From: a virus
Virus record (IMG/VR): IMGVR_UViG_3300020045_002924
Coordinates: 1 to 5,352 of that record
Length of the DNA: 5,352 bases
Direction: 5' to 3' (one strand)
In this document: one piece after another, positions 1-5,352 of the stretch
Layout of the letters: every line of letters starts with the position of its first letter
Numbering within the stretch: the first letter of the stretch is position 1
Notes under the pieces: model-generated
Told to the model about the DNA's origin: nothing
Database searches by the model: none
Seen by the model: only the letters and a program-made list of their open reading frames with translations
Program-made: the position numbers and the translations under genes

Positions 1-121
1 CAGCAAATAGAGATAGAAAATTCTCCTTTTCACATGGTAAAAGAAGAAGGAAAACAGGGCTTTATAGCCCTTGGACAATATCGAGTAAGTGAAAATCTAT
101 TCGATAAAGTAGAAGAAGTAC
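1..121. repeat. Left copy of an exact 121-nt direct terminal repeat (identical to 5232..5352). This is circular-genome assembly redundancy; the unit genome is 5231 nt.
   Basis: Read by eye: 'cagcaaatagagatagaaaattctccttttcacatgg...gtagaagaagtac' at 1..121 recurs base-for-base at 5232..5352. An ORF reads straight through the junction. Confidence 0.95.
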
Positions 122-204: not shown

Positions 205-2159
205 TGAGTATACAAAAAACATTAGGCGGAGACCGCCTCGGCAGTGGAAAAAAACTAAAAGTGCAAATGCACAATTATGAAAGAAGTACACATGATTTAG
301 GATATATATGGAGAAGTTCAATGTCATGCGGAACATTAGTACCATTCATGAGTGTATTGGGGTTACCTGGAGACACATTCGACATTGATTTAAATGCAGA
401 CTGCAAAACATTACCTACTGTAGGTCCAATGTTCGGAAGCTTCAAAATGCAATTAGATGTGTTCAAATGCGATATTAGATTATATCAAGCTTTGTTGCAC
501 AACAATCAGTTGGGAATCGGAATGGATATGAGTAAAATCAAACTACCAAATTTAATTATAAATGGTAGAAATTTGGACACTAATAAGCCAATAGAAAACC
601 AACAAATTAACCAAAGCAGTATATTTGCTTATTTGGGTATAAGAGGTCTAGGGACTTCAAGTGTAGGTGAAACAGTACAGAGAACATACAATGCAGTACC
701 ATATTTAGCATATTGGGATATATACAAAAACTACTATGCAAATAAACAAGAAGAAATAGGTGCGGTTATACACGCAACTAGCAGTAATCCTTGGAATTGG
801 AGCAATTTATATATCAAAAGAAATGGACTTGTATTTTTTCAAGCAACGCCAACAACAGGAATGCCTTGGGGTGTTACTGTACTAAATGGTGATGAAGTAG
901 TAATTCTTGCAGATGTTGGATCTCAAGATGAAGGTAAAAATATAACATTTGCAATAGATGGTGGATACCATACACCATTTGAAATGTTTAGCGAAATAAT
1001 AAGTCCAGCGAATAGTCCATATGTTACATACAGATCATTAACGCCTGACTTCGATTCATTAGATTTAAACGGATTCGATTTTGTAAATCCTTACAAAGAT
1101 GAAGAAAAAGTGAGTATACAAAATTTCAGTCTTGAAAACATTGATAAAATGAGAACTAATTTACTCGCACAGGCAATAACTTCACCTTACCAAGTGCAGT
1201 CTACAGCTATATCTCCGTACGGACTACCAATGAAAAAATCATTAAGTAATGATCAACCAGTCAGCCAGTACAGCCAAGAAGGATTAGGATTAAAAACCTA
1301 TCAAAGCGACATATTCAATAATTGGTTGAGCACGGAATGGATTGACGGTGACAACGGAATTAGCAGTATTACAGCTATATCAACAACTGATGACTACTTT
1401 ACACTTGACACTTTAAACTTAAGTCAAAAAGTGTACAACATGCTAAACAGAATTGCAGTTAGCGGAGGTACATATAACGATTGGATGGAAGCAGTGTACG
1501 GAACTAAACCGTACAACATGAGCGAAACACCTATTTATATGGGTGGATTAAGCAAGGAAGTAGTATTCAACGAAGTAGTAAGTACAAGTACAACGGAAGA
1601 ATTCCCATTAGGAACTCTCGGCGGAAAGGGTGGTATGGCAAAAAAACACAAAGGTGGAAGAGTATCAATAAAATGTAACGAACCATGTTACATAATTGGT
1701 ATAGTATCATTAACACCAAGGGTAGATTATTCCCAAGGTAACGCATGGGATGTACACCTAAAAACGATGGACGATTTACACAAACCAGCATTAGATGAAA
1801 TTGGATTTCAAGATCTGTTAACAGAACAAATGGCGTTTTGGGAATCAATAGATGATCAAAAATTCAGTGCGGGAAAACAACCAGCTTGGTTAAATTACAT
1901 GACGAACTTTAACAAGTGTTATGGTAATTTTGCAGATCCAAACAAAGAAATGTTCATGACTCTAAATAGGAGATATGAATGGGAAACTAATGAAGATGGA
2001 AACCCAAGAATAAAAGATCTAACAACCTATATTGACCCAAGTAAGTACAATTATATGTTTGCACAAACAAGCTTGGATAGCCAAAACTTTTGGGTTCAAA
2101 TTGCAACGGATATTACTGCAAGAAGAAAAATGAGTAGTAAACTAATGCCTAATTTATAA
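204..2159 (+). CDS. VP1: Microviridae major capsid protein (VP1 / F-protein family), 651 aa
   Basis: This is the longest ORF. It carries blocks that resemble conserved segments I recall from gokusho-/alpa-type VP1: 'AVPYLAYWDIYKNYYANKQEE', 'LSQKVYNMLNRIAVSGGTYNDWMEAVYG' and 'TPIYMGGLSKEVVFNEVVSTS'. Its size and position next to VP2 and Rep are typical. Confidence 0.93.
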   Translation: MSIQKTLGGDRLGSGKKLKVQMHNYERSTHDLGYIWRSSMSCGTLVPFMSVLGLPGDTFDIDLNADCKTLPTVGPMFGSFKMQLDVFKCDIRLYQALLHNNQLGIGMDMSKIKLPNLIINGRNLDTNKPIENQQINQSSIFAYLGIRGLGTSSVGETVQRTYNAVPYLAYWDIYKNYYANKQEEIGAVIHATSSNPWNWSNLYIKRNGLVFFQATPTTGMPWGVTVLNGDEVVILADVGSQDEGKNITFAIDGGYHTPFEMFSEIISPANSPYVTYRSLTPDFDSLDLNGFDFVNPYKDEEKVSIQNFSLENIDKMRTNLLAQAITSPYQVQSTAISPYGLPMKKSLSNDQPVSQYSQEGLGLKTYQSDIFNNWLSTEWIDGDNGISSITAISTTDDYFTLDTLNLSQKVYNMLNRIAVSGGTYNDWMEAVYGTKPYNMSETPIYMGGLSKEVVFNEVVSTSTTEEFPLGTLGGKGGMAKKHKGGRVSIKCNEPCYIIGIVSLTPRVDYSQGNAWDVHLKTMDDLHKPALDEIGFQDLLTEQMAFWESIDDQKFSAGKQPAWLNYMTNFNKCYGNFADPNKEMFMTLNRRYEWETNEDGNPRIKDLTTYIDPSKYNYMFAQTSLDSQNFWVQIATDITARRKMSSKLMPNL

Positions 2160-2163
2160 AAAA

Positions 2164-2481
2164 ATGAGATATCATAAAATAAAAAATGAGACAACAATAA
2201 CTGTAAATAATAGTTATGAAGGTGAAAGTATCGAAAACAAAATCGAAAGAATAGTGACTCAAAATGAGCCTATTAAAGACGGTGCACCGCTGATATATAC
2301 CGAAAGAGAAGACGGAGTAAAAGCAGAACACGATATAAGAACTGATAGATGGGAAATAGCAATCGAAGCAATGGATGCAGTAAGTAAAAGCACTCTTGCA
2401 AAAAGAGAAGCTAAACTAAAAAAAGAAGAAGTGGCAGTTGAAGAAATCAAGCCAGTCAACACAAGCGATCCAGTAAATTAA
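2164..2481 (+). CDS. Small acidic protein, 105 aa; possibly an internal scaffolding (VP3-like) protein
   Basis: The ORF starts 4 nt after the VP1 stop and shares the strand and composition of its neighbours. It is rich in E/K/D, with an 'APLIYTEREDGVKAEHDIRTDRWEIAIEAMD' block and a charged helical tail. The position between VP1 and VP2 fits a small structural or scaffold gene. Function is inferred from context only. Confidence 0.6.
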   Translation: MRYHKIKNETTITVNNSYEGESIENKIERIVTQNEPIKDGAPLIYTEREDGVKAEHDIRTDRWEIAIEAMDAVSKSTLAKREAKLKKEEVAVEEIKPVNTSDPVN

Positions 2482-2496
2482 TTATTAAAATCAAAG

Positions 2497-2545
2497 GTGG
2501 TACGCATGTATTCTATATTATCAAGAAGAGTGAGTACCACTTTTT
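2497..2545 (+). terminator. Stem-loop (GTGGTAC ... GTACCAC, 7-bp stem, ~30-nt loop) followed by T5 then A9; a weak intrinsic-terminator or attenuator candidate, or an ssDNA structure
   Basis: Bases 2497..2503 are the reverse complement of 2534..2540. TTTTT follows at 2541..2545 and A9 at 2546..2554. The element lies in the 84-nt gap between the 105-aa ORF and VP2. The large loop makes it a poor canonical terminator. Confidence 0.3.
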
Positions 2546-2565
2546 AAAAAAAAAGCGCGAAAAAT

Positions 2566-3453
2566 ATGGGGGCAGTAGAACAATTAGGAATGCAACTAGG
2601 AGGTCAAGTAATGCAACAAGTAGGCTACGGACTAGGAGAAGCAACAGGCTACAACAAAGCAGTAGCAAATGACCAATTAGAGCAACAAGACAAGCTAGGA
2701 GCAATCCAGCAAAAATACGCATTCGAAGGAATGGACAAAGCATATGATATGAACAGTCCAGAAAACAACGTAAGAAGGCTAAAAGAAGCAGGATTAAATC
2801 CAGCAATGATGTATGGAGGAAGTGGTAGCGGAGGAAGCTCAGTAAACGCACCACAAGCACAAGGCGGACACGCAAGCGATGAAGCAGCAAGAAAGCAAAA
2901 TGATATACAAACTCAAGGAATGGCCATGCAAATGGCAAAACTAAGGAGTGAAATAGACCTAAATGATAGTGTAACAGAAAGAAACAGAAAAGAAGCCGGA
3001 CTAAGTACAGAAAGAACAACAACTGAAAAAGAAATGAGACAACCCTCAAAAGAAAAAACAATACAAGAGGGAGCAAACAAATACCTTGAAAACAAGGAAA
3101 AAACTTGGAAAATGACAGGAAATAACAATGAATGGCAATACAACGGTGGTGAAAAAGGAATGGAAGTAAACGTAAGCGGACAGGGATTTATAGCACAAGA
3201 AGCAATAAATAATATACTTGAAAGCATAGCAAGACAAGGCAACGCAAATGCACAAGCATTGCTAACTAACGAAAAAGCAAAAGGATACTTCCAAGAACTA
3301 GTAAATGCAACAAAACACGCAAATGCGGCAGAGATTGGAGCACTAGCACACAAACTGAGTACAGAATGGAATACAGGTGAAATGACAAATTGGAAAACTT
3401 GGGCAGAACTAGCAGCACTAGCAGCGGGAAGCATAAGTAAAATAATAAAATAA
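2566..3453 (+). CDS. VP2: Microviridae minor capsid / DNA pilot protein (VP2, H-like), 295 aa
   Basis: It has a Q/G/A-rich low-complexity N-terminus, an 'RRLKEAGLNPAMMYGG' block (AGLNP at nt 2788..2802) that resembles a motif I recall from microvirus VP2, a Gly/Ser linker GGSGSGGSS (nt 2815..2841) and long charged helical stretches. Its position between the capsid gene and Rep fits. Confidence 0.8.
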   Translation: MGAVEQLGMQLGGQVMQQVGYGLGEATGYNKAVANDQLEQQDKLGAIQQKYAFEGMDKAYDMNSPENNVRRLKEAGLNPAMMYGGSGSGGSSVNAPQAQGGHASDEAARKQNDIQTQGMAMQMAKLRSEIDLNDSVTERNRKEAGLSTERTTTEKEMRQPSKEKTIQEGANKYLENKEKTWKMTGNNNEWQYNGGEKGMEVNVSGQGFIAQEAINNILESIARQGNANAQALLTNEKAKGYFQELVNATKHANAAEIGALAHKLSTEWNTGEMTNWKTWAELAALAAGSISKIIK

Positions 3454-3456
3454 AAA

Positions 3457-3498
3457 ATGGCACGGTTTGGATTCCTTCGGAATGCCATGCCGTGCCAT
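3457..3498. other. Strong GC-rich imperfect hairpin in the VP2-Rep intergenic region
   Basis: ATGGCACGG (3457..3465) pairs with CCGTGCCAT (3490..3498), giving a 9-bp outer stem. ATTCC (3471..3475) pairs with GGAAT (3479..3483) around loop TTC. GGT/ACC-type pairs are also possible in between. TGCCAT occurs twice (3483..3488 and 3493..3498), which allows alternative pairing. The hairpin starts 3 nt after the VP2 stop. A-runs flank it on both sides, so there is no downstream U-tract for + transcripts. Confidence 0.7.
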
Positions 3499-3545
3499 AA
3501 ATGTAAAAAAAAGTATACATAATAAGAATGAACAACTATTTAACA

Positions 3546-3562
3546 GGTCGGAAATACCGACC
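3546..3562. other. Second GC-rich hairpin (GGTCGG-AAATA-CCGACC), 32 nt upstream of the Rep start
   Basis: A 6-bp perfect stem with a 5-nt loop, read directly from the sequence. It is conspicuous in an AT-rich intergenic region. Confidence 0.6.
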
Positions 3563-3593
3563 GATTAAATATTGTTCAGTAAAAAGATAAAAT

Positions 3594-4562
3594 ATGTGCC
3601 TATATCCGAAGTTAATAAAAAATAGAAAATATATAGCAAATAAAAAAAATGGAGGGAACGTACCTGAAATAAAGGACAGCAGAACCGAGATTGTACCAAT
3701 CGGATGCGGGAAGTGTATAGAATGCATGAAGCAAAAAAAAAGAGAATGGCAGGTAAGAATGAATGAAGAAATTAGAAATAATAAAGAAGGTAACTACGTA
3801 ACACTGACATTCAGTGAAGAAAGTATAATAGAATTAAGTAAAGATGTGGAAATAAAAAGTCTAAGAAAAGATCTAGACAATGAGATAGCAACACTAGCAG
3901 TGAGAAGATTCCTCGAGAGATGGAGAAAAAAATATAAAACAAGTGTAAGACACTGGTTAGTAACAGAATTAGGGCATAATAATACAGAAAGAATACATAT
4001 GCATGGAATAATATTTAATAAAAATAATGAAGAAATAGAAAAAATATGGAAATATGGACACGTTTGGTTCGGTGAATGGGTTAACGAACAAACAATAAAT
4101 TATATAGTAAAATACATAAATAAAATAGATCAAGATCATAAAGGGTACACAAGTAAAATATTATGCAGCAAAGGCATAGGAAGTAACTATATGAAAAGAA
4201 TAGATAGTAAAATAAACAAGTACAACGGAGAAGAAACAAAAGAATACTATAAAACTAAAACAGGAAGTAAATTAAGTCTACCAAAGTACTATAGAAATAA
4301 AATATATACAGATGAAGAAAGGGAAGATTTATGGATAAATCTACTAAATAAAGAAGAAAGATATGTAGGCGGTGAATACATAGATGTAAGTATAAATGAT
4401 GATGAATATAACAAAGCATTAGAATACTACAGAGAAAAAAATAAAAGATTAGGCTATGGAGATGATAGCAAACAATGGAGTAAAGAAAACTATCAACAAG
4501 AAAGAGAAAAATTAAGAGGTTTAAAGAATTATATAAATTCTAAAAGAAATAAACAAGTATAA
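3594..4562 (+). CDS. VP4: Replication initiation protein (VP4 / gpA-like HUH rolling-circle endonuclease), 322 aa
   Basis: RCR motif 1 is 'YVTLTF' (nt 3795..3812). The motif 2 HUH is 'RIHMHGIIF' (HMH at nt 3996..4004). Motif 3, the two-tyrosine 'YIVKYINK' (nt 4101..4124), resembles the phiX174 gpA active-site YxxKYxxK pattern. The N-terminus has 'MCLYP' plus a 'GCGKCIEC' cysteine cluster. Confidence 0.93.
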   Translation: MCLYPKLIKNRKYIANKKNGGNVPEIKDSRTEIVPIGCGKCIECMKQKKREWQVRMNEEIRNNKEGNYVTLTFSEESIIELSKDVEIKSLRKDLDNEIATLAVRRFLERWRKKYKTSVRHWLVTELGHNNTERIHMHGIIFNKNNEEIEKIWKYGHVWFGEWVNEQTINYIVKYINKIDQDHKGYTSKILCSKGIGSNYMKRIDSKINKYNGEETKEYYKTKTGSKLSLPKYYRNKIYTDEEREDLWINLLNKEERYVGGEYIDVSINDDEYNKALEYYREKNKRLGYGDDSKQWSKENYQQEREKLRGLKNYINSKRNKQV

Positions 4563-4574
4563 TAATAAAAATAT

Positions 4575-4582
4575 TATATTTG
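4575..4582 (+). promoter_or_regulatory. Match to the Bacteroidetes-type -7 promoter box consensus TAnnTTTG (TATATTTG), 24 nt upstream of the peptidase ATG
   Basis: The motif was read directly in the 43-nt Rep-peptidase spacer and overlaps an 8-bp palindrome, TTTGCAAA (4579..4586). No clear -33 TTTG partner was seen. The same 8-mer also occurs inside VP1 (620..627), so a chance match is plausible. Confidence 0.25.
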
Positions 4583-4605
4583 CAAACAATTTAATAATAT
4601 AAAAT

Positions 4606-4932
4606 ATGAAAAGAAAAAATTCAAGTGTTAATCTAGAAAGATTAAACAAAGAAATGAAAGTTGCAATGGTAAAAACCGAAAATGCATGCAAGGCAATAGA
4701 AGGTAAAAAGTATGAAATAACGATTACAAGTGCAAAAGATGGAAAGCATAAGATTAATAGTAAACACTACACAGGTGATGCAATAGACATTAGAACTAGA
4801 GATATGAAATATCCAAGCGCATGTACAATAAGAATTAAAATAGAAATTGGAGACGATTACGATGTAATAAACGAAGGTGATCATATACATATAGAATACG
4901 ATCCAAAAACAAATAAAAGTTGGAAAAAATAA
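4606..4932 (+). CDS. Small LAS-family (peptidase M15 / VanY / hedgehog-fold) zinc peptidase-like protein, 108 aa; candidate peptidoglycan hydrolase (endolysin)
   Basis: 'ITSAKDG...NSKHYTGDAIDIR' fits the S-x-H-x-x-G-x-A-x-D zinc-ligand motif (His54 at nt 4765..4767, Asp61 at nt 4786..4788). 'GDHIHIEYD' fits the C-terminal H-x-H motif (nt 4882..4890). The ~35-residue spacing and the minimal size are consistent with a bare catalytic domain. No signal peptide or TM segment is present. Confidence 0.72.
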   Translation: MKRKNSSVNLERLNKEMKVAMVKTENACKAIEGKKYEITITSAKDGKHKINSKHYTGDAIDIRTRDMKYPSACTIRIKIEIGDDYDVINEGDHIHIEYDPKTNKSWKK

Positions 4933-4962
4933 ACTAAATATCCTAGAAGGGAGGTGTATAAA

Positions 4963-5067
4963 ATGGAAAAAACAGAAATTATTCAAATAGTAGCAAATTT
5001 CATAGTGTTTATAATAGGCTTATTAATTAAAAGCCCAATAAAGAAAAAAAATGGAATGGAAAACTAA
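4963..5067 (+). CDS. 34-aa single-pass membrane peptide (MEKTEIIQIVANFIVFIIGLLIKSPIKKKNGMEN); candidate holin-like or lysis-accessory protein
   Basis: Translated manually, because it is below the ORF-track cutoff. It has a 17-residue uninterrupted hydrophobic core (I6-I22) and a Lys-rich C-tail. It is preceded by the only strong Shine-Dalgarno sequence in the genome (GGGAGGTG, 4948..4955, 7 nt before the ATG). It starts 30 nt after the peptidase stop. Confidence 0.5.
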   Translation: MEKTEIIQIVANFIVFIIGLLIKSPIKKKNGMEN

Positions 5068-5224
5068 AGTACAATTAGTAGACATAGATACAGGAGAAAT
5101 CCTGTATCAAAAAGACTTAATAAATTACGTATTAATAAATAAAGAAAAAAAAACAGATTATGGAATCAAAGAAATCAATTATGTTAAACTCTATCGGAGA
5201 GTCTACAGAAGTATATTCGACTGA
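5051..5224 (+). CDS. 57-aa hypothetical protein (MEWKTKVQLVDIDTGEILYQKDLINYVLINKEKKTDYGIKEINYVKLYRRVYRSIFD)
   Basis: Translated manually. Its ATG lies within the last 17 nt of the 34-aa ORF, at the end of an A8 run. Without it, 5068..5159 would be non-coding in a compact genome. No family was recognised. Confidence 0.4.
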   Translation: MEWKTKVQLVDIDTGEILYQKDLINYVLINKEKKTDYGIKEINYVKLYRRVYRSIFD

Positions 5225-5352
5225 ATTAGTACAGCAAATAGAGATAGAAAATTCTCCTTTTCACATGGTAAAAGAAGAAGGAAAACAGGGCTTTATAGCC
5301 CTTGGACAATATCGAGTAAGTGAAAATCTATTCGATAAAGTAGAAGAAGTAC
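5160..5352 (+). CDS. 5' portion of the junction-spanning hypothetical protein, ~91 aa from ATG 5160 or 84 aa from ATG 5181. It continues into 1..204 on the circle and is truncated here by the window end.
   Basis: The frame is open from 5139. ATGs lie at 5160 and 5181 (MESKKSIMLNSIGESTEVYSTELVQQIEIENSPFH...). It reads through the repeat boundary at 5231/5232 without a stop and terminates at TAA 202..204, overlapping the VP1 start. Confidence 0.55.
   Translation, partial: MESKKSIMLNSIGESTEVYSTELVQQIEIENSPFHMVKEEGKQGFIALGQYRVSENLFDKVEEV
5232..5352. repeat. Right copy of the exact 121-nt terminal redundancy (identical to 1..121)
   Basis: Direct comparison with 1..121 found no mismatches. Confidence 0.95.

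What the first reader, a model, noticed from the sequence alone, without database searches (positions are those of the whole stretch)
4606..4932. A minimal LAS/M15-type zinc peptidase encoded by a microvirus
Seen in the sequence: the 108-aa ORF carries SKHYTGDAID and DHIH in the order and spacing of the His/Asp/His zinc triad. Established knowledge: that triad defines LAS metallopeptidases such as VanX/VanY, phage L-alanyl-D-glutamate endolysins and the hedgehog fold. Canonical Microviridae (phiX174 protein E) lyse without any muralytic enzyme, by blocking MraY. A dedicated cell-wall peptidase in a 5.2-kb ssDNA genome is therefore a costly, non-core acquisition. Inference: it could act as an endolysin, an entry-associated wall-remodelling enzyme, or an immunity or signalling function. 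From memory, M15-like ORFs have been noted sporadically in metagenomic microviruses, so the fold assignment may not be new. To my knowledge the function has not been characterised.
Basis: partly seen in the sequence, partly recalled or inferred. Interest (0 to 1): 0.8.

Follow-up and report, generated by a model that had tools for sequence, protein, structure and literature searches.

The report
Small microvirus cell-wall peptidase lysis cassette
A 5.2-kb single-stranded DNA phage, probably infecting Bacteroidales, carries a 108-residue zinc cell-wall peptidase of the Hedgehog/D-Ala-D-Ala-peptidase fold next to a 34-residue membrane peptide, most likely a two-gene lysis cassette; such peptidases in microviruses have been known since 2012.

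Summary
ORF 4606-4932 encodes a 108-aa protein with H54-x6-D61 and H93-x-H95. These residues, plus H48 and R63, are invariant in 39 homologs (H48, H54, R63, H93 and H95 in 124; D61 in at least 90%). The AlphaFold model is confident (pLDDT 91) and matches the Sonic hedgehog N-domain and phage M15A peptidases.

The protein falls below every curated Pfam cut-off. It belongs to a large family of about 100-aa proteins (5,928 cluster representatives) that is nearer to Hedgehog than to Peptidase_M15_3.

It has no signal sequence. A 34-aa single-pass membrane peptide (4963-5067) follows it and has the genome's only strong ribosome-binding site.

In 77 related microviruses, the Rep-to-capsid gap holds this peptidase (14), a classical M15_3 peptidase (4), a DUF5675 enzyme (7), or none of these (52). 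The enzymes are usually followed by a tiny membrane peptide. The same pairing occurs at three other genome positions in other microviruses. In some tailed phages, homologs sit in holin/spanin cassettes.

The best reading is an accessory endolysin plus a holin-like partner, in an Alpavirinae-like phage of Bacteroidales. M15 peptidases in microviruses were reported in 2012, and a microvirus wall hydrolase was verified biochemically in 2025. This is a new member of a known kind, of modest interest.

The parts
4606..4932 (+). Gene for a 108-aa zinc peptidase of the Hedgehog/DD-peptidase (LAS) fold. It has no signal peptide or transmembrane segment.
   Evidence: ORF. 40 homologs with invariant catalytic residues. 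Pfam HH_signal E=4.5e-4. Family profile against PDB Shh-N 1.5e-7. AF2 pLDDT 91.2. Foldseek matches to Shh-N and to M15A-named phage proteins. Maximum hydropathy 0.36.
4747..4794 (+). Motif 1, codons H48 to R63: H48 (counterpart of Shh H135), S52, and the H54-x6-D61 zinc ligands, followed by invariant R63.
   Evidence: Residue-by-residue alignment to Shh/Dhh. Invariance. Motif definition H-x6-D in PMC6027127.
4873..4902 (+). Motif 2, codons E90 to D99: near-invariant E90 (likely general base, one position off Shh E177 in the gapless alignment), H93-x-H95 (H95 is the third zinc ligand), E97 and D99.
4950..4954 (+). GGAGG Shine-Dalgarno core, 8 nt upstream of the ATG at 4963. It is the only strong SD in the genome; the other genes have A-rich leaders.
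   Evidence: Sequence. Upstream regions of all genes compared.
4963..5067 (+). Gene for a 34-aa single-pass membrane peptide, MEKTEIIQIVANFIVFIIGLLIKSPIKKKNGMEN. It has an acidic N-terminus, one transmembrane segment with a conserved Gly, and a Lys-rich tail. An alternative GTG start lies at 4954. Proposed holin-like partner ('type B').
   Evidence: ORF. Hydropathy 2.6-2.8. It is the only non-embedded small TM ORF on the coding strand. Same-design peptides follow LAS peptidases in other genomes.
4563..4605 (+). Intergenic spacer between the Rep stop and the peptidase start. It contains TATATTTG (4575-4582), which fits the Bacteroides -7 promoter consensus (recalled from memory), but the motif is not enriched.
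   Evidence: Sequence. The motif occurs 7 times against 8.55 expected, so promoter status is unproven.
3594..4562 (+). Context: Rep/VP4 gene, the upstream boundary of the hypervariable accessory region.
   Evidence: Pfam REP_ORF2-G2P 3.4e-12 and phrog_942 4.3e-33.
5051..5224 (+). Context: 57-aa conserved protein of unknown function, a clade core gene. It marks the downstream boundary of the cassette and overlaps the end of the TM-peptide gene.
   Evidence: Homologs in relatives. Its family F0 is present in 75 genomes.

Best explanation
The 108-aa protein is an active zinc peptidoglycan peptidase that serves as the phage's endolysin. It is made in the cytoplasm without any export signal. The 34-aa membrane peptide encoded 30 nt downstream (probably N-out/C-in) permeabilises or perforates the inner membrane late in infection, which gives the enzyme access to the wall. 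The enzyme then cuts peptide stems or cross-links (bond unknown) and the cell bursts. The two genes form a mobile, accessory lysis cassette inserted between Rep and the capsid block of an Alpavirinae-like microvirus that probably infects Bacteroidales.

Shown here: the fold, the conserved active-site residues, the lack of a signal sequence, the recurrent gene pairing and its modular shuffling, and the lysis-cassette context of some tailed-phage homologs.

Inferred: catalytic activity, the bond cleaved, holin-like action of the peptide, its topology, timing, and host.
For: Enzyme:
- H54-x6-D61 and H93-x-H95, plus H48 and E90, align with Shh H141/D148/H181-H183/H135 (motif in PMC6027127).
- These residues are invariant or nearly so in 39 and 124 homologs.
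- AF2 pLDDT is 91. Foldseek gives Shh-N at probability 1.0 and TM 0.60-0.63. BFVD hits include proteins named 'Peptidase M15A' or 'Murein endopeptidase K' at probability 0.9-1.0.
- HH_signal hits 25 of 39 family members and Peptidase_M15_3 hits 8 of 39.
- No hydrophobic segment is present.

Lysis role:
- Tailed-phage homologs lie next to Rz-like spanins and holins. In L015 the neighbour matches phrog_1275 at 2e-10. In L053 the neighbours match holin phrog_297 at 6.5e-4 and phrog_1026 at 2.3e-6.
- An M15A endolysin of phage ST79 has been cloned, purified and characterised (PMC5025407).

Cassette:
- In 77 clade genomes, 13 of 14 Hh-like peptidases have a 27-55-aa TM ORF directly downstream. So do 3 of 4 M15_3 peptidases by the hydropathy threshold; the fourth, L095, has the same peptide family just below it. 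So do 3 of 7 DUF5675 enzymes.
- A small TM ORF occurs in this region in 20-21 of 25 genomes with an enzyme but only 16 of 52 without one (Fisher p=2e-5 to 7e-5).
- Both peptide designs combine with different enzymes: Hh-like with type A or B, M15_3 with B, DUF5675 with A.
- The Hh-like peptidase plus a type-B peptide recurs at three other genome positions in other microviruses: OR149006, PV067915, OR148990, PV067928/OP549866 and MH572422.
- The peptide gene has the genome's only strong SD.

Host: full prophage relatives lie in Dysgonomonas (including the isolate DSM 27370), Bacteroides, Paludibacteraceae and Aphodosoma genomes.
Against: - No experiment exists on this family in any microvirus.
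- The window protein is below Pfam's curated cut-offs.
- The 3-D convergence of the three ligands could not be measured, because model coordinates are not exposed.
- A 27-37-aa peptide is, as far as I recall, much smaller than any characterised holin. PHROGs has no match for it.
- An enzyme of 12 kDa needs a sizeable lesion to cross the membrane.
- Some enzyme-less genomes also carry small TM peptides. One peptidase carrier, L002, has the peptide truncated. The two genes are therefore not strictly interdependent.
- Some tailed-phage homologs sit in tail or head-tail modules rather than lysis cassettes.
- A Gram-negative host would also need outer-membrane disruption, and no spanin is present.
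Confidence: 0.6

Rival explanations
1. The peptidase is an endolysin, but the tiny membrane peptide is not its holin. The peptide could be the primary lysis effector (a single-gene-lysis or membrane-disrupting peptide, or an outer-membrane 'disruptin'-like agent), with the enzyme only speeding wall breakdown. Alternatively the pairing may serve another purpose, such as timing or superinfection exclusion.
For: - Small TM peptides also occur in 16 of 52 genomes without a recognised enzyme.
- L002 keeps the peptidase but has a truncated peptide.
- Type-A peptides are cationic and amphipathic rather than clearly membrane-spanning (hydropathy 1.5-2.2).
- No spanin is present for a Gram-negative host.
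Against: A signal-less enzyme still needs a route across the membrane. The tight adjacency (gaps of 0-40 nt or overlaps) and the co-transfer to four genome positions argue for functional coupling.
Confidence: 0.17
2. The peptidase is an entry enzyme. A few copies would be packaged or attached to the virion and would locally open the peptidoglycan for the pilot-protein DNA conduit.
For: - Some tailed-phage homologs lie in structural modules. In L021 the homolog is next to a tail-fiber-J-like protein. In L024 it is between a head-tail connector protein and the major tail protein.
- The domain also occurs at the C-terminus of 720-1,075-aa proteins and in tape-measure-sized BFVD hits.
- Ebor Gp7 was detected in trace amounts in virions.
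Against: - It is absent from 63 of 77 close relatives with the same capsid and pilot genes, so entry does not require it.
- It is interchangeable with two other enzyme families.
- It is paired with a membrane peptide that has no obvious role in a T=1 virion.
- The Ebor signal was only trace.
Confidence: 0.1
3. The protein has a non-lytic role, such as wall remodelling in lysogens, immunity, signalling, or a catalytically inactive binding protein.
For: The clade includes integrated prophages, so expression in lysogens is conceivable. Hedgehog itself is a signalling ligand with the same fold.
Against: The full catalytic set is conserved, including H48 and E90, which correspond to the residues lost in the non-enzymatic Drosophila Hh. 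There is no signal peptide and no PADLOC match. Relatives have lysis-cassette contexts.
Confidence: 0.05

Closest known systems
Peptidase_M15_3 genes of Gokushovirinae and Alpavirinae (Roux et al. 2012, PMC3394797). M15 peptidases of Occultatumvirinae roseophages (PMC11499846) and the 'lys' (endolysin) gene of Rhizobium microviruses (PMC9512667) are related reports.
   Same: A small, horizontally acquired LAS-type wall peptidase in a microvirus. It is patchy in distribution and proposed to be an endolysin. Roux et al. noted an adjacent unknown ORF in 5 of their 11 cases. The likely host (Bacteroidetes) and the Alpavirinae-like genome type also match.
   Different: The window protein does not hit PF08291 at all. 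hhalign against the clade's own M15_3 peptidases gives only 59% probability (E 9e-5). It has H-x-H where those have F/Q-x-H. It is shorter (108 aa against 130-143 aa) and is nearest to the Hedgehog N-domain.
Hedgehog N-terminal domain and the Hh/DD-peptidase family, including 'bacterial Hedgehogs' (Roelink 2018, PMC6027127)
   Same: H-x6-D and H-x-H zinc motif, with counterparts of H135 and (offset by one position) E177. These are the only solved structures found by sequence profile (E 1.5e-7 and 6.7e-7) and the top Foldseek PDB hits.
   Different: Only positions 98-160 of the 161-position Pfam model are covered. The N-terminal half of ShhN, which in my recollection carries the Ca2+ sites and receptor surfaces, is absent. 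There is no Hint/autoprocessing domain. [quoted passage not shown]
M15A endolysins of tailed phages within holin-endolysin-spanin cassettes (for example Burkholderia phage ST79, PMC5025407)
   Same: A stand-alone small LAS peptidase without a signal sequence, next to membrane proteins. Direct homologs of the window protein sit beside holin and Rz-like spanin genes.
   Different: The partner here is a single peptide of 27-58 aa and there is no spanin. The carrier is a 5.2-kb ssDNA genome.
Ebor Gp7, the peptidoglycan hydrolase of a 'Tainavirinae' microvirus (PMC11980548)
   Same: An accessory wall hydrolase in a microvirus. Ebor also encodes a 45-aa predicted membrane protein, Gp1. Gp7 activity was shown by zymogram.
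   Different: Gp7 is 146 aa and was matched by HHpred to PDB 6SSC; its enzyme family is not stated in the passages read. No homology to the window protein was tested. Its host is an alphaproteobacterium.
phiX174 protein E and other single-gene lysis proteins
   Same: They solve the same problem, lysis from a very small genome.
   Different: E blocks MraY and has no enzyme activity (statements). Here a muralytic enzyme is encoded. No conserved embedded E-like ORF was found.

Membership tests
LAS / Hedgehog-DD-peptidase superfamily (MEROPS clan MD; Pfam clan Peptidase_MD) | Zinc-ligand motif H-x6-D plus H-x-H (PMC6027127) | tested here: met
   H54-x6-D61 and H93-x-H95 are present. They are invariant in 39 homologs. 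In 124 homologs they are invariant, or at least 90% conserved for D61.
LAS / Hedgehog-DD-peptidase superfamily (MEROPS clan MD; Pfam clan Peptidase_MD) | Catalytic acid/base residues (Shh H135 and E177 equivalents) | tested here: inconclusive
   H48 aligns exactly with H135. Near-invariant E90 lies one residue away from E177 in the gapless HMMER alignment (N89 is opposite E177). Some homologs have insertions between E and HxH. Equivalence is likely but was not shown structurally.
LAS / Hedgehog-DD-peptidase superfamily (MEROPS clan MD; Pfam clan Peptidase_MD) | The fold: a central antiparallel sheet packed by helices, similar to known members | tested here: met
   AF2 pLDDT 91.2 and pTM 0.81. 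Foldseek PDB top three hits are Shh-N, at probability 1.0 and TMq 0.60-0.63. BFVD hits include proteins named 'Peptidase M15A, C-terminal' and 'Murein endopeptidase K' at probability 0.9-1.0. Caveat: no bacterial LAS crystal structure appears among the top 50 PDB hits.
LAS / Hedgehog-DD-peptidase superfamily (MEROPS clan MD; Pfam clan Peptidase_MD) | The three ligands converge on one metal site in 3-D | not testable with these tools
   Model coordinates are not returned. There is only indirect support: D61 and H95 lie in predicted strands 59-63 and 93-98, and H54 lies in the preceding loop.
LAS / Hedgehog-DD-peptidase superfamily (MEROPS clan MD; Pfam clan Peptidase_MD) | Zinc-dependent hydrolysis of peptidoglycan peptide bonds | not testable with these tools
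   This needs biochemistry.
Pfam Peptidase_M15_3 (PF08291) / MEROPS M15A | Score above the curated gathering threshold (23.2 bits) | tested here: not met
   The window protein has no PF08291 hit at E<=1. Only 8 of 39 family members hit it at E<=0.01. hhalign to the clade's true M15_3 proteins gives 59% probability. This is a clan-level relative, not a member.
Pfam VanY (PF02557) / Peptidase_M15_4 (PF13539) | Score above the curated threshold | tested here: not met
   VanY scores E=0.14 and 12.4 bits against a cut-off of 25. M15_4 hits 1 of 39 members at 0.0086.
Pfam HH_signal (PF01085), Hedgehog N-terminal signalling domain | Score above the gathering threshold, and coverage of the whole domain | tested here: not met
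   20.4 bits against a cut-off of 22.1, E=4.5e-4, covering only model positions 98-160 of 161. 25 of 39 family members hit it, with a best E of 4.3e-7. It shares the peptidase core only.
MepK (YcbK/DUF882) L,D-endopeptidase | Match to NCBIfam NF053624 or Pfam Peptidase_M15_2 | tested here: not met
   The window protein has no NCBIfam hit; 1 of 39 relatives hits at 0.0069. One JGI relative is named 'YcbK (DUF882 family)' by its source.
Holin-endolysin lysis cassette | A muralytic enzyme lacking an export signal, adjacent to a small membrane protein with a charged C-terminal tail | tested here: met
   The peptidase has no hydrophobic segment. The 34-aa peptide, with one TM segment and a KKK tail, starts 30 nt downstream. 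The pairing recurs in the clade and in other lineages.
Holin-endolysin lysis cassette | The membrane protein belongs to a known holin family | tested here: not met
   There is no PHROGs hit for the window peptide, and 0.093 to a family of unknown function for the OR149006 peptide. At 27-37 aa it is shorter than the holins I know of (from memory).
Holin-endolysin lysis cassette | Membrane lesion formation and enzyme release shown functionally | not testable with these tools
   This needs genetics and physiology.
Microviridae (Alpavirinae-like) | F/VP1 capsid, pilot VP2 and Rep VP4 on a circular genome of about 5 kb; prophage relatives in Bacteroidetes | tested here: met
   Pfam and PHROGs hits. 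Circularity from the 121-nt terminal repeat. Integrated relatives lie in Dysgonomonas, Bacteroides, Paludibacteraceae and Aphodosoma. Formal subfamily assignment by phylogeny was not done.

The most novel reading that the evidence does not exclude
Microviruses of Bacteroidales and related lineages carry a modular, horizontally mobile two-gene lysis cassette. At least three unrelated or distant wall enzymes (Hh-like LAS, M15_3, DUF5675) are freely combined in it with one of two kinds of 27-37-aa membrane peptide. These peptides would be the smallest holin-like proteins known. They would show that the tailed-phage holin/endolysin strategy, not only single-gene 'protein antibiotic' lysis, operates in ssDNA phages of about 5 kb.
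Probability: 0.45. Interest if true: 0.6.

Novelty: new member of a known kind. Interest (0 to 1): 0.36.

Why it matters
Textbook microvirus lysis is phiX174 protein E blocking MraY. This genome, and about a third of its clade, instead carry a dedicated wall-degrading enzyme, usually with a tiny membrane peptide.

If the pairing is functional, it gives a minimal and genetically tractable holin/endolysin system of about 140 codons in total, and a set of very small lysins active on Bacteroidales walls. The family also lies on the phage and bacterial side of the Hedgehog/DD-peptidase superfamily, which bears on where the Hedgehog ligand domain came from.

None of this overturns current views. The presence of M15-type peptidases in microviruses and their proposed endolysin role are already published.

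Tried and rejected
- **Curated libraries.** NCBIfam and PADLOC give no hit for the window protein.
- **Bacterial LAS structures.** Sequence-profile searches of the PDB with 39- and 124-sequence profiles found only Hedgehog N-domains, with no VanX, VanY, MepK or Ply500-type structure at E<=10. Foldseek against the PDB likewise gave only Shh-N above noise. Direct membership in those families is therefore not claimed.
- **Promoter idea.** TATATTTG at 4575-4582 fits a Bacteroides -7 box (consensus recalled from memory). TAnnTTTG occurs 7 times against 8.55 expected, so this is not evidence.
- **Rival embedded lysis gene.** A 41-aa hydrophobic ORF lies inside VP1 (760-885). Only 6 of 77 relatives have any such ORF, and at different positions, so it was rejected as chance.
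- **Tailed-phage contexts.** My crude gene caller failed on many high-GC loci. I therefore report only individually checked examples, not a frequency of lysis-cassette against structural-module contexts.
- **Single-protein Rep search.** It found only 4 loci, and one had a frameshift that broke an alignment. It was replaced by a profile search.
- **Not run.** The sigma-70 promoter/terminator scan was skipped, because the inferred host (Bacteroidales) uses other promoters.
Full report
**1. What is in the window**

The 5,352-nt window is a complete circular microvirus genome of 5,231 nt, with a 121-nt terminal overlap (1-121 = 5232-5352). All genes are on the + strand:
- capsid F/VP1 at 204-2159 (Pfam Phage_F 7e-14; phrog_514 1e-45);
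- a 105-aa ORF at 2164-2481;
- pilot VP2 at 2566-3453 (PHROG pilot families, about 3e-6);
- Rep/VP4 at 3594-4562 (phrog_942 4e-33);
- the ORF under study at 4606-4932;
- small ORFs that lead back to VP1.

**2. The observation**

The ORF encodes 108 aa, with SKHYTGDAID at residues 52-61 and DHIH at residues 92-95.

The match is not chance. 40 proteins match in the 5.8-billion-protein collection. In a 39-sequence alignment with 30-57% identity to the query, H48, H54, D61, R63, H93, H95, E97 and D99 are invariant. In 124 sequences, T41, H48, H54, R63, H93 and H95 remain invariant, and D61 and E90 are at least 90% conserved.

**3. Fold and family**

- *The window protein alone.* It hits Pfam HH_signal at E=4.5e-4 (20.4 bits, below the 22.1 cut-off) and VanY at E=0.14. 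It has no Peptidase_M15_3 hit.
- *Alignment to Hedgehog.* phmmer against PDB sequences finds Sonic, Desert and Indian hedgehog N-domains at about 2e-4. The residue alignment places H48, H54, D61, H93 and H95 on Shh H135, H141, D148, H181 and H183 (numbering and motif from PMC6027127). Near-invariant E90 is one position off Shh E177.
- *Family profiles.* They raise the Hedgehog match to 1.5e-7 and 6.7e-7. No bacterial LAS structure is retrieved.
- *Member-by-member Pfam scan.* 25 of 39 members hit HH_signal and 8 of 39 hit Peptidase_M15_3.
- *Structure prediction.* AlphaFold2 with the family alignment gives pLDDT 91.2 and pTM 0.81.
- *Foldseek against the PDB.* The top three hits are Shh-N (probability 1.0, TMq 0.60-0.63).
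- *Foldseek against BFVD.* The best hit is a Microviridae protein whose UniProt name is literally 'Sonic hedgehog protein...' (E 7.7e-7, TMq 0.70). A Salinibacter phage protein follows. After that come many phage proteins named 'Peptidase M15A, C-terminal', 'Murein endopeptidase K' or 'Peptidase', including three 'Microvirus mar' proteins.
- *Comparison with classical M15_3.* hhalign against the classical M15_3 peptidases found in sister genomes gives 59% probability (E 9e-5) with the motifs in register.

The protein is therefore a Hedgehog/DD-peptidase (LAS) superfamily enzyme, from a family distinct from the curated M15 Pfam families. I could not measure the metal-site geometry.

**4. Size and spread of the family**

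An exhaustive profile search of 1.84 billion cluster representatives finds 5,928 proteins at E<=1e-3 and 3,960 at E<=1e-10. Most are stand-alone proteins of about 100 aa. Some have an N-terminal extension of 20-35 aa. A few carry the domain at the C-terminus of proteins of 720-1,075 aa.

'Minimal' is therefore a property of the family, not an adaptation to microviruses. IMG/VR holds 329 viral loci with a relative, on both microvirus-sized and tailed-phage-sized contigs. In GenBank phage records, 14 Microviridae genomes carry a homolog. All are annotated 'hypothetical protein' or left unannotated.

**5. Context in tailed phages**

Some homologs sit in classical lysis cassettes:
- In L015 the peptidase is followed by a two-TM protein, an N-terminally anchored protein, and a lipobox protein that hits Rz-like spanin phrog_1275 at 2e-10.
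- In the L053/L054/L058/L059 type it is followed by a holin (phrog_297, 6.5e-4) and an Rz-like spanin (phrog_1026, 2.3e-6).

Others sit in structural modules. In L021 the homolog is next to a tail-fiber-J-like protein. In L024 it lies between a head-tail connector protein and the major tail protein. The family is therefore used as an endolysin, and possibly also as a virion-associated enzyme.

**6.

The stop of the peptidase gene ends at 4932. A GGAGG box at 4950-4954, with 8-nt spacing, precedes an ATG at 4963. This opens a 34-aa ORF, MEKTEIIQIVANFIVFIIGLLIKSPIKKKNGMEN. The peptide has an acidic N-terminus, one strongly hydrophobic segment (hydropathy 2.6-2.8) and a Lys-rich tail.

It is the only gene in the genome with a strong Shine-Dalgarno sequence. 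It is also the only small, non-embedded hydrophobic ORF on the coding strand. The peptidase itself has no hydrophobic segment (maximum hydropathy 0.36), so it cannot reach the wall unaided.

**7. Comparative test of the pairing**

A Rep-profile search gave 77 usable microvirus genomes of the same clade, with VP4 51-68% identical. The Rep-to-VP1 gap varies from 182 to 1,443 nt. The table shows what the gap contains.

| Content of the gap | Genomes | Tiny TM ORF directly downstream (within 80 nt of the enzyme stop) |
|---|---|---|
| Hh-like peptidase | 14 | 13 |
| Classical Peptidase_M15_3 (Pfam 1.5e-20) | 4 | 3 by the hydropathy threshold; the fourth (L095) has the same peptide family just below it |
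| DUF5675 enzyme (Pfam 5.8e-28; weak YkuD/Tlde1 similarity) | 7 | 3 |
| None of these | 52 | not applicable; 16 have some small TM ORF in the region |

A small TM ORF in the region is associated with the presence of an enzyme: 20-21 of 25 genomes against 16 of 52 (Fisher p=7e-5 to 2e-5).

Two peptide designs exist:
- Type A has a basic N-terminus and a hydrophobic C-terminus ending in GTQL or GTQV (27-31 aa).
- Type B has an acidic N-terminus, a TM segment with an invariant Gly, and a K/R tail. The window's peptide is type B (A3).

All combinations occur: Hh-like with A, Hh-like with B (the window), M15_3 with B, and DUF5675 with A.

In unrelated genome architectures the Hh-like peptidase is again followed by a type-B peptide:
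- between VP2 and Rep in OR149006, PV067915, PV067928 and OP549866; in the last two the peptide has a signal-peptide-like N-terminal extension, which suggests an N-out topology;
- after Rep in OR148990;
- between VP1 and VP2 in MH572422, where the peptide's ATG overlaps the end of the peptidase gene.

In MG883709, the closest GenBank relative by VP1, a type-B-like ORF of 52 aa ending KKKNGNN lies just before VP1. The two genes behave as a mobile module with interchangeable parts, as holin/endolysin cassettes do in tailed phages.

**8. Host**

Complete prophage copies of this clade (VP1, the 105-aa ORF, VP2 and VP4) lie in several Bacteroidales genomes: Dysgonomonas sp. 521, D. macrotermitis DSM 27370 (on a 265-kb contig), a Bacteroides MAG, a Paludibacteraceae MAG and Candidatus Aphodosoma. 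The DSM 27370 prophage has an M15_3 gene immediately upstream of VP1.

This fits the Alpavirinae, which are known only from Bacteroidetes prophages (PMC3394797). It also fits the A-rich leaders without Shine-Dalgarno sequences seen on most genes here. The host assignment is an inference.

**9. Mechanism proposed (confidence about 0.6)**

The peptidase is a cytoplasmic, zinc-dependent peptidoglycan peptidase that acts as the endolysin. The 34-aa peptide damages or perforates the inner membrane and lets the enzyme out.

The rivals are:
- the peptide is itself the main lytic agent, or an outer-membrane disruptor (about 0.17);
- the enzyme is an entry enzyme (about 0.1);
- the protein has a non-lytic role (about 0.05).

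The evidence against the favoured model is as follows. There is no experiment. The partner is unusually small. There is no spanin for a Gram-negative host. TM peptides occur without a recognised enzyme. One peptidase carrier (L002) has a truncated peptide. Some tailed-phage homologs sit in structural modules.

**10. Comparison with what is known**

- Roux et al. 2012 found M15_3 peptidases in 5 gokushoviruses and 6 alpaviruses, showed horizontal acquisition, noted an adjacent unknown ORF in 5 cases, and proposed an endolysin role.
- M15 peptidases or 'lys' genes are reported as common in Occultatumvirinae and Rhizobium microviruses.
- Ebor Gp7, a 146-aa hydrolase, degrades peptidoglycan in zymograms. 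[quoted passage not shown] Ebor also has a 45-aa membrane protein.
- The Hedgehog/DD-peptidase relationship and bacterial Hh-like domains are described in PMC6027127.
- DUF5675 was proposed as a C82-like lysin domain in a 2026 preprint.
- I found no paper describing the tiny membrane-peptide partner or the modular swapping in microviruses. The library searched is limited to open-access text.

**11. Verdict**

This is a new member, from a sub-family not captured by curated models, of a known kind. Interest is 0.36. The more novel reading, a modular lysis cassette with record-small holin-like peptides, has a probability of about 0.45 and would deserve about 0.6.

Noticed in passing
window 1-121 and 5232-5352; ORF 5160-5352 continuing into 1-204: The window is a circularly permuted complete genome of 5,231 nt with a 121-nt terminal repeat. 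The ORF listed at 34-204 is really the C-terminal part of a 91-aa ORF that starts at 5160 and crosses the junction. It is conserved in nearly all clade genomes (motif ..TPFTIV..G..R[IV]TE..W.R..QVIWAVVEKF in relatives). It has no family match; a weak AbiEi hit at 0.0059 is probably noise.
   Followed up: partly
Rep-to-VP1 gap of loci L001-L013 and L083-L150 (window equivalent 4563-5159): This gap is a hypervariable accessory hot spot of 182-1,443 nt. Three different wall-enzyme families occupy it in different genomes: the Hh-like LAS peptidase (14), Peptidase_M15_3 (4) and DUF5675 (7). 52 genomes have none, so their lysis mechanism is unknown.
   Followed up: yes
L103, L111, L116, L124, L129, L139, L141 (Rep-to-VP1 gap): Proteins of 124-158 aa match Pfam DUF5675 (up to 5.8e-28), with weak Tlde1 and YkuD (L,D-transpeptidase fold) similarity and an H..G......GC motif. 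They are likely a third type of microvirus lysin. A 2026 preprint calls DUF5675 a C82-like candidate lysin domain.
   Followed up: partly
L096, L104, L115, L117, L123, L135 (Rep-to-VP1 gap): Six enzyme-less genomes carry a conserved 50-63-aa protein with two hydrophobic segments and a basic tail (..VWEVIARVIPTVNNWSGTA..LKVLNFLSELLN.KK). It looks holin-like or like a single-gene lysis protein, and it has no Pfam match.
   Followed up: no
L151 (Dysgonomonas sp. 521), L154 (D. macrotermitis DSM 27370), L152, L155, L158: Integrated prophages of this microvirus clade lie in Bacteroidales genomes. In the cultured strain DSM 27370, an M15_3 peptidase gene (L154 2102-2494) lies directly upstream of VP1 (2512). 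This offers an experimental handle on the system.
   Followed up: partly
window 5051-5224, and relatives: A conserved 57-73-aa protein (..W.T.SE.VD.ETGEI...) follows the cassette in almost all clade genomes and overlaps its neighbours. It has no family match and its function is unknown.
   Followed up: no
L159 (PV067928.1) 1854-2030 and L162 (OP549866.1) 1812-1988: Here the type-B membrane peptide is 58 aa. An N-terminal segment resembling a cleavable signal peptide (MKSKILMALAAVAMGANSYA|AS..) precedes the usual acidic-TM-basic unit. This hints that the short N-terminus of the peptide faces the periplasm.
   Followed up: no
L002 (IMGVR_UViG_3300017707_000705), downstream of the peptidase: A deletion truncates the tiny membrane-peptide ORF and removes the 64-aa core gene, while the peptidase stays intact. 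This is either a defective genome or evidence that the partner is dispensable.
   Followed up: no
L021, L024, L020 (tailed-phage contigs): Homologs of the 100-aa peptidase lie inside structural modules: next to a tail-fiber-J-like protein (L021), between a head-tail connector protein and the major tail protein (L024), and near a virion structural protein (L020). This suggests a virion-associated use of the same small enzyme in some tailed phages.
   Followed up: partly
window, upstream of all gene starts: Only the 34-aa ORF has a canonical GGAGG Shine-Dalgarno sequence. VP1, VP2, Rep, the peptidase and the other genes have A-rich leaders without one. This is compatible with a Bacteroidetes host, and it makes the single strong SD conspicuous.
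   Followed up: partly
L081 (MG883709.1) 2061-4131: In the closest GenBank relative the capsid gene is annotated as two pieces, VP1-1 and VP1-2. This is probably a frameshift or assembly error in that record.
   Followed up: no
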